A stretch of DNA of 64,000 nt, from positions 44,454,001 to 44,518,000 of the forward strand of contig OX597815.1 of the NCBI GenBank assembly GCA_951406725.2, read 5' to 3'. This DNA comes from Octopus vulgaris (taxonomy: Eukaryota). Below are positions 25,814 to 48,569 of the stretch, piece by piece. The notes under the pieces are model-generated. The model searched no databases and had not been told where the DNA came from. It was given only the letters and a program-made list of their open reading frames with translations. Each line of letters starts with the position of its first letter. The stretch's first letter is position 1. The position numbers and the translations under genes were made by a program.

Positions 25814-26320
25814 ATCTTCTTCTTCTTCTTCATCTTCTTCTTCTTCCAATCAGGACTCACGCCCTTAGCCACAAAAAGCTCTGATTTGAGCCTACACTAA
25901 GCTACAAAGAATGCGTGTGGCAACTTGAGGATCCACCCACCACACGCGATAGACTGGCGGTTGCACAGGCGCGAAAGCTACGTTGTTATCCTCATTCCGT
26001 AAACGATGGCTTTTTTAAGGGTGGAGAGCTGAACCATCCTGGGTTACAGAGGATTCGCAATCTAGACTAGGGTCTGAAAGTTTGCCACACCATAATGGTT
26101 TACACCATGGTTCCTCTGCTTTGTGACAGAAGTAGGAAGAAAGAGTGGGAGAAAGTTGTGGTGAAAGAGTACAGTGGGGTTCACCCTCACCCCGCCGGAG
26201 CCTCCTGGAACTTAGGTGTTTTTGCTCAATAAACACTCACAATGCCCGATCTGGGAATCGAAACCGCGTTCTTACGACTGTGAGTCCGCTGCCCTAACCA
26301 CTGGGCCATTGCACCTCCAC
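25814..26320 (-). mobile_element. SINE family C, tail type 1 ending in (GAA)n
   Basis: Head gtggaggtgcaatggcccagtggttagggcagcggactc..tttcgattccc; 10-bp TSD ggacgttgtt at 25804-25813 and 26321-26330. Confidence 0.85.
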
Positions 26321-26499
26321 GGACGTTGTTGTTTTTCTTGTTCTTGTTGCTCTTGTTTTTGTTCTCGTTGTTGTTGGAATATAGTCCCTATCCTACAATC
26401 CTGACATCAAGTCAGCTTCAAACAGCAGACCTTTTTGAACAAATACCATTTACGACCATCCCGTCATTTAGTTATTTAGCTTTCATCCTTTATTTTTAT

Positions 26500-26850
26500 G
26501 TATTTCAGCTAGTAGACTACGGTCATGCTGAGGCACCATCTTCAAGAATTTTAGTAGAATAAAACAGACCCAGTACATTTTCCTTTAACTGTAGTGCTTA
26601 TTTTAGTGTTCCCTTTTTGCCAAACCGCTCAGTTACGGAGACGTAAATGCACTAACATCGGTTATCAAGAGGAAAGGAAATGCAGAGGCCAACACACACA
26701 CTCACACACATACACACACGGTGTTGGTTTGTTTATGACCGATAGAATAAGAATCAAATTCAAAATAAGCTTCTGGGGTCAATTCGTTCAACTAAACTTC
26801 ATCAAGGCGGTGCCCCACCATGGCAGCAGTCAGTTCATCGGACTATAAGA
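26500..26850. mobile_element. Two old SINE A 3'-half relics in opposite orientation
   Basis: ggtcatgctgaggcacc (-) and aggcggtgccccaccatggcagcagtc (+). Confidence 0.55.
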
Positions 26851-26869
26851 AGTTAAGATTTAAAAGTTA

Positions 26870-27840
26870 AGGTTTTTTCTTCAAGGGGCCCTATTTTTCT
26901 TCATAGTCTATATAAATAACATCTCAAAGGTCATCAGGTACAACAAAATATAAACTTCCACTGATATTTCCAAGGTTGAGAAACTTGTAAATAGTGAAGA
27001 CCATACAAATTCCAGTTCTGCATGTTGTAAGTCAAAGGGCGGACAGATGCTGATAAATGCGGGGAAAATGGAACTCAGTTACTATAGAAAAGTAAATATG
27101 CTCAGACAACTCCACCTATTCTCCGCCTTCAAGAGGAGAATCCACCACAACCAACAATATTAGAGACTTACGAGTAATTTTTTGAAACCACCTCGCAAGA
27201 TGGATCATTAAAACTTTCCACACCAGAGAAACAGGTGTCACCACCTTTTTCTCCTCGTTTGTACGGTCAAAAATAGAACAGTGTTGTCCCCTGCAGCCTC
27301 TCCATATTAAACTAAGCATTAGGAGCACTGTGAAGCCCTAACCACCAATTACAATAAATAAATAAATAAATAAATTTCATGACTGATCTTCATTATTAGG
27401 GCCGCTTAAAAACATTGCAACTCTATTCTTCCAACGCCGTTGTGAGCCCTACATGATTTGCCCAAATGCCCATAATAAGCTAACAATTAATCAAAGGCTG
27501 CAATCCCCTGTTATACGCACTCCACACAAGTCAAGATCACAATACATAAACATACTGCAACAAAATTATTCTTTCTTAACAGCCCCTGCTCTATCTAACA
27601 TTATCCTGAAACACATGAAAGACGAAAAAGATCCCTTAACCTTCAAACTATACTTGGAAACTTTTCAAGGAATGCCAGATAAGTCTCATATCCCGGGATA
27701 CAACTCAATCACCAGCACTCCACTTAAATTAACTATGATATCACAAAATTTGACTTCAAAATGACTTAACTCAATCTACCAGATGGTGCTTTTCAGATAG
27801 ACATGGCCTACAGCAATTTTGGGGTGAAACATAACTAAGT
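26870..27840 (+). mobile_element. CR1/L2/Jockey-like LINE 3' relic
   Basis: WIIKTFHTRE..SSFVRSKIEQCCP and YSFLTAPALSNII resemble a LINE RT C-terminus; many stops. Confidence 0.6.
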
Positions 27841-28436
27841 TTATATATATGTTAATGTATATATGGATATACATATATGTGTGTGTATATATATACATAC
27901 ATACATACATATATATATATATATATATATATATATATATATATATATATATATATATATATACATACATACATACATATATATATATATATATATATAT
28001 ATACATACATACATATATATATATATATATATATATATATATATATACACACACACACAGACAGACAGTGACAGAGACAAGGACAAATACATAGATACAA
28101 ACACATACACACACAATGAGACAAACAGACAAACAGACAGACAGACAGACAGACAGACAGACAGACAGACAGACAGACAGATAGATAGATAGATAGATAG
28201 ATAGATAGATAGATAGATAGATAGATAGATAGATTCACACAAATACATACACACACACAAACCTCAGATGGATAAAGAGAAAGAGTGAGACAGACAGATA
28301 GAGAGAGACCCAGTGAGGAATGGTATTTTTTTTCAACAACAAAGAACGTAAACTTTGGATTCAATGGTCAAAGGACAACGAGTCCTTCACACGGATTGTC
28401 AAGACTTTTGGAACTCATTATATAAAGCCACTTAAA

Positions 28437-45844: not shown

Positions 45845-46305
45845 AGGAGACGGCGAGCTGGTAGAAACCTTAGCACGCCGGGCAAAATGCTTAGTGGCAT
45901 TACCGTCTTTACGTCCTGAGCTCAAACTCTGCCGAGATCGACTTTGCCTTTCATCCTTTCGGGATCGACGAAATAAGTACCAGTTACACACTGGGGTCAA
46001 TATGATCGACTAGTCCCCCCCCCCGCCGCAAATTCCAGGCCTTGTGCCTATAGAAGAAAGGATTATTATTATTATTATCATAGGAGACGGCGAAGTGACA
46101 GAATCGTTAACACGCCGGGCAAACTACTTAGCTGTATTTTGTCCGTCTTTATGTTCTGAATTCAAATTCTGCTAGGCCCGACTTTGCCTTACATGCTTTC
46201 AGGGTCGATGAAATAAGTACCAGTTTTGCACTGGGATCGATGTAATCGACTAGCCAGCTCCCCTAAAAGTTCCAGGCCTTGTGCATCCAGTAGAAATGAT
46301 TATTA
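45845..46305 (+). mobile_element. Two tandem SINE B copies with alternative tail ending (ATT)n
   Basis: ggagacggcgag..ctttgcctttcatcctttc..ccaggccttgtgc..gattatt, present twice. Confidence 0.85.
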
Positions 46306-47967
46306 TCATAAGAAATATTACTAATGGTTAGTGCCAAATATTTCTAAAATTAGTTTCTTGAAACGGAATCATTTGCAAATCAACAAATAAGAGTTTACCT
46401 GGTCACTTGATGTGTTAGAAATAACAGCCAAATTTCCCTCCTGTCACATTCTAGTGTCTGAAATAAGTAGATGACACTCTGGTTATGTAACCGTGTTCTG
46501 GACTTATCCCTGAAAAGATGGTGTGGCCACGACTAGAATGTCTTCGATGTCATATTTCTGAGCCTTTAGAACTGCCCTTCGACAAAATAACAACGACAAC
46601 AACAACAACGACGCCAACAAAGCAACAACAATATTGTCTTGATTTGCGAAAAAACTTTCGCCTTTGTATTTCCTGTTTAGGTACACATAATGAAACATTT
46701 AATACAACACAAAATAATTTAATGAATATATGATTAAATTAAAACAGATTTATATTTGGCCACAATTCGATTTACTTTTTGCTATTATCTACATATTGTT
46801 TTTTTTAATTTTAAACTATCAAAGAGAAGTGAACAAAAATATAAATAATTTAATAAAGGAATAATTAAATGAAACGTAATTTATAATCTGTACATATTGG
46901 CAAATCTCACACGCAGGGGTTCAATTAAAAATATTTTTTATGCTTACCAACATTTACATGCATGCGTAAACATAGATAAACGTACATTTATACATTTATG
47001 AATGTGGTACGTATGAATACTGACTAATACATACACAAACTTAGACACACACACGCGCGCGCTCACACACATACACACACATACACGCAAACACAAACAC
47101 GCACACACACATAAACACATTTATGTATGCCGTATGAAACACAAATGCACTCACTAATATATAATATTCAAATTAGCTTTATATGTATTTGTTTATGGAG
47201 TTGGTGTAATATTTTAAGAAACTTCACGTACATATAGACATGAATTTATATACATAAATCTATCTACATAAATGCATATATAATGCACGTGTTATACATA
47301 CATACATACACACACACACATACATACATACATACATACACACATACACACACACACACACACACACACATATATATATATATATATATATTTACATACA
47401 TGTACACAATCTGAACAAACTGTTGTCTTTTTATTATACCAAAATCCCAAAATCCTATAGCATCAATAGTAATATTCTTCGGATTGTGACAGGGAACAAA
47501 ACTTCACGATAGAAAAACTCCAGAAAGCGCTTTTATTGTCGGCCACTAGCACACAGAAAAAAAAGAAGAAAAAATTAAGAAAAAGATTATCGGCATAAAA
47601 GTTCTCAGAAGGGTTAGATCATGCCAACGTTAGGAAATACAATTGTTGTAACAAAGAACAAACCTTCTTAGCTGATGAAGAATTCTGGTTAACTACACAC
47701 CAAAATTTAATAATTAGATTAGGATTTAGGTTTAAGAATACAATTGCCAAAAAAACATGTTCGTATTTCAAAAGCAGAACAATGGAAAAAGAGGGTCGAG
47801 AGGGAAAGTAAAAAAAACAAAAAAAAACCACTTAAGGTACAGCAGACTTTCTCTACAGTTTATATTTTCTCAATTGAAATGAAACAAATGTACCATGTAG
47901 TTTAAGCTTAAGGTGATAGACAAGGTCACAGAAACACTGGAAGCTACTGTTGAAATGTGTATGGTAT

Positions 47968-48190
47968 CGAGTCGTAGGACACACAGGGCCGGCTATCCGG
48001 TTTCCATGGCATATTAGTTACCAAGATCACAACATTACTCTGTACAGGAGGCCAATCCAAAGCAGAGTTGTTCATTTATAGCTGAGTGGACAGGAGTAAC
48101 ATAAAATGAAGTATTTTGCAGAAAATCACAATGCACCGCCAGGTCTTTGAGTCAAGACCAAGAATCTTGCGATCCTGATTGTAGCTTCTT
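47968..48190 (-). mobile_element. Old SINE (family D), diverged
   Basis: ccggtttccatggcatat..agctgagtggac..aaaatgaagtattttgc; related to 52325-52457 and 10841-11085. Confidence 0.5.
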
Positions 48191-48308
48191 TAAGATTCAT
48201 GATCGCTTTACAGCGTCATAGTTTGTGGGTTATGTTTTTACAATCCAAGAGCAGGTGGTAGCTATAAAATTGAACAAAAGATATAGTAAAACGCTAAACT
48301 CTCGAAGT

Positions 48309-48569
48309 GTGGAGACACATGGCCTAGTGGTTAGAGCAGCGGTTTGAATCTCAGACCGGGCGATGTGTGCGTTTATGAGCGAAACACCTAAGCTCTACGC
48401 GGCTCCGGCAGAAGGTAATGGTGAACTTCTGCTGACTCTTTCGCCACAACTTTCTCTCACTCTTTCCTCTTGTATCCTGCGACGGACCGGCGTCCCGTCC
48501 AGGTGGGGAACCTATACGCCAAGGAAACCGGGAAACAGGCCCTTATGAGCCAGGCATGACTCGAGAAGG
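48309..48569 (+). mobile_element. SINE C, tail type 4
   Basis: Same head with an internal deletion; tail cctgcgacggaccggcgtcccgtccagg..gactcgagaagg; TSD aaac(t/c)ctcgaagt at 48296-48308 and 48570-48582. Confidence 0.82.

What the first reader, a model, noticed from the sequence alone, without database searches (positions are those of the whole stretch)
25814..48569. One SINE head, four interchangeable 3' tails
Seen: four elements (25814-26320 -, 31518-31809 +, 33270-33657 -, 48309-48569 +) share a tRNA(Arg)-like head and the following ~90 nt, up to ctctttc(a/g)ccac. They then switch to four unrelated tails of ~100-330 nt. Three are bounded by clear TSDs (10, 12 and ~13 bp), so each head+tail is a single insertion rather than a chance neighbour; the fourth sits in (TA)n. 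Established: SINE 3' tails are usually borrowed from the mobilising LINE. Inference: one Pol III head with a fixed swap point recruits at least four partner retrotransposons, possibly with different target preferences.
Basis: partly seen in the sequence, partly recalled or inferred. Interest (0 to 1): 0.75.

Follow-up and report, generated by a model that had tools for sequence, protein, structure and literature searches.

The report
One SINE head, six captured tails
In this animal genome (likely an octopus) one short jumping repeat exists as at least six families that share the same front half but end in different tails and favour different landing sites; several tails were likely taken from a sister repeat, a kind of module swapping already known in molluscs.

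Summary
The four elements are real. Each tail marks a multi-copy family (40 of 40 scored hits each), and the four tails are mutually unrelated. Two more families turned up (T5, T4b). Tails are not freely interchangeable: T1, T4a and T5 travel with their own head variants. A sister head (B) carries T2, T3, T4a and T4b too, and A-T4b keeps 8 nt of B's body, so at least that tail came from a SINE, not a LINE. Flanks differ by tail (TA/TG repeats, CAA, CAG, ordinary DNA), but duplications are about 12 bp in all four measurable families. No partner LINE was found among 30 LINE ends; only T3 shows an RTE-like end. 'At least four partner retrotransposons' is therefore not shown. This is mosaic SINE evolution as published for gastropods and bivalves; one family may be the octopus OR1 (not testable). 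The scan earlier noted other SINE-LINE tail links in this genome, not this head-tail set among the notes listed.

The parts
25814..26320 (-). E1, family A-T1: head A 26320-26128, tail T1 26127-25847, (GAA)n 25846-25814; TSD 10 bp at 26321-26330 and 25804-25813
31518..31809 (+). E2, family A-T2: head A 31518-31690 (about 10 nt of the pyrimidine tract lost), tail T2 31691-31809, inside (TA)n
33270..33657 (-). E3, family A-T3: head A 33657-33463, tail T3 33462-33279, short (CTA/TA) end; TSD 12 bp at 33658-33669 and 33258-33269
48309..48569 (+). E4, family A-T4a: divergent head variant A4 48309-48475 (23-nt deletion in the tRNA-like part, shortened junction), tail T4a 48476-48569; TSD 13 bp, one mismatch, at 48296-48308 and 48570-48582
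33463..33495 (-). Pyrimidine tract that ends head A (shown in E3); all six tails join at or within about 12 nt of its 3' end (T4a after a further spacer of about 10 nt)
   Evidence: T4b and T2 joined at 33463 and 33471 in contigs of other runs
33510..33535 (-). Conserved 6-bp hairpin just before the tract (approximate limits, shown in E3), with double-sided changes between families
47985..48143 (-). Worn sister element: head-B body with a T4-type tail (partial matches)
52326..52451 (-). Head-B fragment without a recognised tail

Best explanation
The four elements belong to four of at least six SINE families that share one tRNA-like head and body (head A, about 195 nt, ending in a hairpin and a pyrimidine tract) and differ in their 3' tails; the families likely arose by a few rare template switches of a LINE reverse transcriptase onto head-A RNA at the end of that tract, with an existing head-B SINE as the likely tail donor for T2, T3 and T4b. 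Shown: the families, the junction zone, the presence of T2, T3, T4a and T4b on head B, the B remnant in A-T4b, the differing flanks. Inferred: Pol III transcription, template switching (1-3 nt of shared letters at the joints), direction B to A for T2 and T3, and that each chimera then spread from its own master copy. The mobilising enzymes are likely APE-type LINEs, RTE clade for T3 and perhaps others; site preference likely follows the terminal microsatellite of each tail as much as the enzyme.
For: Families: 31 A-T1, 41 A-T2, 42 A-T3, 39 A-T4 (36 T4a, 3 T4b), 31 A-T5 among 184 classified copies (most fetched by targeted searches). In 1.0 Mb taken at round coordinates, 19 head-A bodies: 7 T3, 6 T2, 2 T4b, 1 T1, 1 CR1-type tail, 2 unclassified, roughly 50,000 copies if scaled. 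Junction at consensus positions 185-198 for all 10 family pairs. Head B carries T3 (16), T4 (10), T2 (2) and T6 (16) in all loci held; heads A and B align over the first ~127 nt. T3, T4a, T4b and T6 start right after the same B motif (AAATGAGT-like), and the 3 A-T4b copies keep 8 nt of it; the same A-T4b and B-T3 joints appear in contigs of two other runs. B-T3 tails in the 1.0 Mb sample are 73-94% like the young T3 consensus, A-T3 tails 91-99%. TSD >= 8 bp: T3 33 of 37, T4 24 of 31 (mispaired controls 3% and 2%), T1 13 of 28, T5 18 of 24 (controls 17% and 38%), median 12 in each. Flanks: simple repeat upstream in 29 of 31 T2, AAC in 27 of 28 T1, CAG in 21 of 24 T5, simple repeat in only 4 of 37 T3 and 5 of 31 T4. 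T3 end resembles 7 RTE 3' ends as a group (z 4.3, p 0.002), and T3 sites show T at 62% and 66% 14 and 13 nt before the TSD (29 sites), like the RTE signature of PMC6007223. No consensus holds a TTTT run.
Against: No LINE 3' end matched any tail at the level of the control (control z 10.9; best tail z 4.3, p 0.03-0.05 before correcting for 10 tail queries). The RTE group test and the T peak were chosen after looking at the data. T1 and T5 were seen only on head A, so their donors are unknown and could be LINEs. A-T4a has no B remnant, so its direction is open. For T2 only 2 head-B copies were seen. Head-to-tail linkage fell to 18 of 35 in copies not picked by their own family's query, because older T2 and T3 heads are alike; consensuses were built from the same copies. 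Template switching cannot be told from DNA recombination by sequence alone.
Confidence: 0.72

Rival explanations
1. One reading: head A took each tail directly from the 3' end of a different LINE, and four or more LINE families with different endonucleases mobilise the four families.
For: Tails are mutually unalignable; terminal repeats and flanks differ; T1 and T5 occur only on head A; T5 ends and lands in CAA/CAG repeats as Ingi-like LINE ends do here; one head-A copy carries a tail that clearly matches CR1 ends (L128). Several LINE clades are reported active in Octopus vulgaris (PMC13282606).
Against: No partner found among 30 LINE ends; four tails are shared with head B and one keeps B's body end; TSD length is the same across families.
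Confidence: 0.3
2. One clade (RTE) mobilises most or all families through a shared terminal stem-loop shape, and the different landing sites come only from pairing of each tail's microsatellite with the target.
For: Median TSD 12 bp, in the 10-12 bp range given for RTE (PMC6007223 section 15); that paper links TSD start to the 3' microsatellite; T3, T4a, T4b and T6 ends fold into a similar stem-bulge-hairpin; tail repeat and flank agree for T2 (TA) and T5 (CAG/CAA).
Against: Only T3 scores against the RTE ends; T1, T2, T4a, T4b, T5 and T6 give p > 0.2. T1 ends in (GAA)n but lands in CAA-rich sites.
Confidence: 0.3
3. The joints come from DNA-level recombination or gene conversion between dispersed SINE copies at a low-complexity tract, not from reverse-transcriptase switching.
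For: Precedent: a TG tract was invoked for tail changes in V-SINEs and Snail SINEs (PMC4758252 section 12); the junction is a low-complexity tract.
Against: A and B share no homology at the joint beyond 1-3 nt; their homology ends at ~127 nt, where homologous exchange would be expected instead.
Confidence: 0.15
4. Chance neighbours or read-through into flanking DNA.
For: None beyond the window alone.
Against: Every tail recurs with head A genome-wide and whole elements are bounded by TSDs.
Confidence: 0.01

Closest known systems
Littorina saxatilis Snail SINEs Lsa_3 to Lsa_6 (PMC4758252; passages and section 12 read)
   Same: Two tRNA-derived heads and several tails in a head-by-tail matrix in one mollusc genome; no partner LINE traced; a low-complexity tract proposed as swap site.
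   Different: There the families share a central domain and form a 2 x 2 set; here head A replaced the 3' half of its body and carries six tails, with measured differences in landing sites.
Bivalve HCD SINEs, 'mosaic evolution' (PMC11481361; passages read; supplements searched for motifs only)
   Same: One superfamily uses several tails and homologous tails occur on different superfamilies; 16 of 21 tail clusters had no LINE match.
   Different: Partners named there are CR1, CR1-Zenon, L2 and Nimb; here the only lead is RTE for T3. That survey has no cephalopod.
Octopus OR1 and OR2 (Ohshima and Okada 1994; not held; named as CORE-SINEs in passages of PMC4824008 and PMC4758252)
   Same: Octopus tRNA-derived SINEs with a CORE-type body. 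Recalled, from no call: both are tRNA(Arg)-like, about 390 and 270 bp, close to A-T3 (388 bp here) and the T4 families.
   Different: Identity could not be tested: no sequence was available. The six-tail set was not found in the searches made.
MetaSINEs and CORE-SINEs (PMC4824008; passages read)
   Same: Variable 3' tails on a constant head and body, explained by reverse-transcriptase template switching.
   Different: There the tail changes are spread across phyla; here they coexist as young families in one genome.
RTE-related SINEs with microsatellite-guided insertion (PMC6007223; abstract and sections 15-16 read)
   Same: TSD of 10-13 bp, T excess about one helical turn upstream (T3), TSD start tied to the 3' repeat.
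   Different: There the LINE partners share a clear 3' sequence; here only a ~30-nt motif for T3.

Membership tests
tRNA-derived SINE | Short dispersed repeat, high copy number, TSD, simple-repeat 3' end | tested here: met
   305-480 nt plus repeat; 19 head-A bodies in 1.0 Mb; TSD median 12 bp
tRNA-derived SINE | tRNA-derived head with A and B boxes | tested here: inconclusive
   A-box and B-box-like motifs and a folded anticodon-like arm are visible in the consensuses; ARAGORN and Rfam call nothing; parent tRNA not searched
tRNA-derived SINE | Pol III transcription | not testable with these tools
   No TTTT run in any consensus is compatible only
CORE-SINE superfamily | Homology to the ~60-bp CORE domain | not testable with these tools
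   No CORE consensus could be read; the likeness of positions ~78-105 to the 5' part of CORE is recalled, from no call
Octopus OR1 / OR2 | Sequence identity to the published consensus | not testable with these tools
   Paper not held; only a recalled length fit
Mosaic (module-swapping) SINE set | Same head and body with different tails | tested here: met
   six tails on head A
Mosaic (module-swapping) SINE set | Same tail on different heads | tested here: met
   T2, T3, T4a, T4b on heads A and B
SINE with a defined LINE partner | 3' end shared with a LINE of the same genome | tested here: not met
   0 of 10 tail queries reached the control level against 30 LINE ends; library incomplete
RTE-mobilised SINE (T3) | RTE-type 3' terminal motif | tested here: inconclusive
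   group z 4.3, p 0.002, chosen post hoc; no single RTE family matches closely
RTE-mobilised SINE (T3) | TSD 10-12 bp with upstream T stretch | tested here: met
   median 12; T in 37 of 58 cells at two adjacent positions picked from 25, against about 36%

The most novel reading that the evidence does not exclude
Head A is a standing tail-capture module: Pol III often stops in its TTTCT-rich tract, giving a compact ~190-nt RNA whose 3' end is the landing point for reverse transcriptases jumping off other SINE and LINE RNAs, as U6 is for L1. One promoter has thereby annexed at least six tails, each with its own landing-site habit, within one octopus lineage, which would make a natural matched series for asking whether the enzyme or the RNA tail chooses the target.
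Probability: 0.22. Interest if true: 0.65.

Novelty: new member of a known kind. Interest (0 to 1): 0.38.

Why it matters
Tail swapping in SINEs is established, including in gastropods and bivalves, so the principle is not new. The value is the case: SINEs are reported as 11.6% of the Octopus vulgaris genome with almost all young families unclassified (PMC13282606), and this gives a modular classification (heads A and B, tails T1-T6). Six young families with nearly the same head but different tails and flanks are a convenient set for testing how tails set partner choice and target site, and whether swap points are RNA ends.

Tried and rejected
Partner-LINE hunt: family and protein searches of the genome (PF00078, PF00075, PF20049, PF13966, an Ingi-like and an RTE protein), PF09004 found nothing anywhere, controls included; 1.94 Mb of loci scanned. 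Ends of CR1, RTE, RTE-X-like, Dong-like, Tx1 and Ingi-like elements (clade names are my reading of the proteins) gave no clear match. No tail copy continued upstream into LINE coding sequence. T4 as an RTE-X-type end looked plausible by eye but failed (p 0.15-0.21). T5 as an Ingi-type end and T2 as the end of the L324 element also failed. T2 as a ribozyme, prompted by 4 headless copies in 1.0 Mb that start at or within 6 nt of the junction: Rfam gave only two chance hits and the fold lacks HDV or hammerhead order; stalling or microhomology with (TA)n is simpler. Expression: no RNA holder listed, so RNA ends could not be seen. Laying contigs on T1 showed no other 5' partner among the 11 loose ends displayed (77 not shown); run X19 (organism E) left most of T1 uncovered, which proves nothing. 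Contig depths are not copy numbers and were not used. Look-ups of earlier findings by tail sequence were blank. Motif searches in two papers' supplements were blank (one file unreadable); the SINEBase supplement, which may hold OR1/OR2, could not be read. The unbiased sample stayed at 1.0 Mb. A first regular-expression count of the hairpin was one base off and was redone.
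Full report
Setting. The window lies on a 215-Mb contig of a 2.8-Gb genome with about 30 large contigs; GC is 36% and simple repeats abound. Size and LINE content fit an octopus (inference; compare PMC13282606, part 1 of 3 read).

Observation. TSDs are 10, 12 and 13 bp (one mismatch) for E1, E3 and E4; E2 lies in (TA)n. Searching the genome with each tail alone gave 40 of 40 scored matches for T1, T2 and T4; the copies shown carried head A or its 3' part upstream. The head search gave T3 in all 30 fetched loci. 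Of 21 pairs among seven tails only T4a and T4b are related. The finding is neither read-through nor divergence of one tail.

Junction. Consensuses from 24-38 full copies per family agree to positions 185-198 (86-96% identity), the 3' end of a ~30-nt pyrimidine tract. Before the tract is a 6-bp hairpin: among 116 of 184 copies that could be parsed, 81-99% of cells pair per family, with one pair changed on both sides in T1 (12 of 14) and two in T4 (21 of 23). These are three events, not many. No consensus has a TTTT run; the tract holds one to three TTTCT per family. That such words can stop Pol III weakly is recalled, from no call.

More families. A fifth tail, T5, found beside another locus, is also a family (40 of 40 scored; 31 copies on head A). 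A sixth, T4b, is a relative of T4a joined to a different head variant (3 copies) and seen in contigs of two other runs (62 and 51 contigs). One copy carries a CR1-type tail joined earlier, at position 156 (L128). In 100 stretches of 10 kb taken at round coordinates there were 19 head-A bodies: 7 T3, 6 T2, 2 T4b, 1 T1, 1 CR1-type, 2 unclassified, and no T4a or T5. Four different families in one 64-kb window is thus partly luck.

Not interchangeable. Nearest-consensus classification by head alone gave the right tail in 166 of 184 copies: T1 31 of 31, T5 31 of 31, T4 36 of 39 (the 3 misses are T4b), T2 33 of 41, T3 35 of 42. In the 35 copies outside their own family's query loci it was 18 of 35, the misses being T2/T3 and T4b. 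The consensuses came from the same copies and from best hits, which favours young subfamilies (median divergence 1.5-3.9%). Reading: separate master lineages, with T2 and T3 captured by nearly the same ancestral head.

A sister head. Headless-looking tails mostly had another head, B, which aligns with A over the first ~127 nt and then has its own 3' body. In all loci held, B carried T3 16 times, T4 10, T2 2 and a further tail T6 16. T3, T4a, T4b and T6 begin right after one short B motif, and all 3 A-T4b copies keep 8 nt of it; A-T3 and A-T2 share only 2-3 letters with it; A-T4a has its own spacer; T1 and T5 were never seen on B. In the 1.0 Mb sample B-T3 tails (10) are 73-94% like the young T3 consensus and A-T3 tails (7) 91-99%. 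So B-to-A capture is shown for T4b, likely for T3 and T2, open for T4a.

Landing sites. TSDs of 8 bp or more: T3 33 of 37 and T4 24 of 31 (mispaired controls 3% and 2%), T1 13 of 28 and T5 18 of 24 (controls 17% and 38%, so weaker), median 12 in all four; T2 is uninformative (control 40%). Simple repeats flank 29 of 31 T2; AAC precedes 27 of 28 T1 and CAG 21 of 24 T5; T3 and T4 land mostly in ordinary DNA. Whether enzyme or tail causes it is open: PMC6007223 (sections 15 and 16) ties the TSD start to the 3' microsatellite in RTE systems and gives 10-12 bp as typical for RTE.

Partners. Seven genome searches and 1.94 Mb of loci yielded 30 LINE 3' ends. A control SINE tail matched two CR1 ends at z near 11; the best of 10 tail queries reached z 4.1-4.3 (T1, T2, T3; p 0.03-0.05 uncorrected). 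Against seven RTE ends as a group T3 scored z 4.3 (p 0.002) and an older T3 z 2.6, the other seven queries p > 0.2; the group was chosen after noticing the likeness. T3 sites have T in 18 and 19 of 29 cases 14 and 13 nt before the TSD (positions picked from 25). An RTE partner for T3 is a fair lead; nothing names partners for T1, T2, T4 or T5. The library is incomplete, so absence is weak evidence.

Mechanism. Most likely a LINE reverse transcriptase copying a tail-donor RNA jumps to head-A RNA at the end of the tract, over 1-3 shared letters; a chimera that keeps the promoter and a recognised tail becomes a new master. Template switching is the explanation offered for MetaSINE tails (PMC4824008, passage). 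Why the point is fixed is inferred only: RNA ends at a leaky terminator, or a pause between two folded domains. Four headless T2 copies starting at the junction fit a pause there.

Known or new. Same-head-different-tail and same-tail-different-head sets are published for Littorina (PMC4758252, section 12) and bivalves (PMC11481361, passages). Octopus OR1 and OR2 are cited as CORE-SINEs, but the original papers and SINEBase supplement were unavailable, so overlap with them is untested and likely. Searches (listings only, apart from the papers named) showed no description of this six-tail octopus set. Earlier scan notes (8 listed each) concern Tx1 targeting, ribozyme tails and half-LINEs, not this set.

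Verdict. Observation confirmed with a shifted junction; interpretation partly supported. A new, well-resolved member of a known kind; interest 0.38.

Noticed in passing
window 1193-1620 and about ten relatives (e.g. 28633-29038, 41404-41804, 51550-51947); L155, L079: Another abundant tRNA-headed SINE with an internal (TA/TG)n; its 3' end matches two CR1-type LINE ends (z about 11). Used as the positive control.
   Followed up: partly
L128:8981-9185: Single head-A copy joined at position 156 to the CR1-type tail of that other SINE, ending in poly(A); possibly a one-off capture.
   Followed up: partly
L126:3746-4084 and 15 more loci: Head B with tail T6, the commonest B family in the 1.0 Mb sample (12 copies); its last 20 nt resemble T3's (z 3.1). 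Not seen on head A.
   Followed up: partly
L375:3219-3450: An old T3 tail behind what looks like a third head, related to the CR1-tailed SINE.
   Followed up: no
L133:3855, L157:2684, L351:6423, L360:9066: Headless T2 copies in (TA)n that start at or within 6 nt of the head-tail junction. Several truncated T1, T2 and T5 copies start just after the hairpin (L038, L077, L303).
   Followed up: partly
L019:274-1000: Tandem array of three A-T4a units within one TSD pair, each unit restarting at about position 40 of the head.
   Followed up: no
L283, L079, L189: A-T5 inserted in the (AAC)n tail of an Ingi-like end; A-T2 inserted in the repeat tails of CR1 copies.
   Followed up: no
window 5719-6078, 18733-19086, 19779-19940, 36106-36338, 45825-46309, 60305-60519: A further abundant repeat family, often in tandem or nested units.
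   Followed up: no
window 35874-36072 and 36392-36585: Inverted pair of repeats holding a tRNA-Leu-like sequence called by ARAGORN at 35981-36055.
   Followed up: no
window 8990-10203 (+), 38258-38827 (-), 24952-25416 (-): Fragments of a Penelope-like ORF, a mariner-like transposase and a Tx1-like ORF.
   Followed up: no
L379-L398, L128, L193: At least eight RTE families whose 3' ends share a short stem-loop motif followed by (TA)n or (CAT)n.
   Followed up: partly
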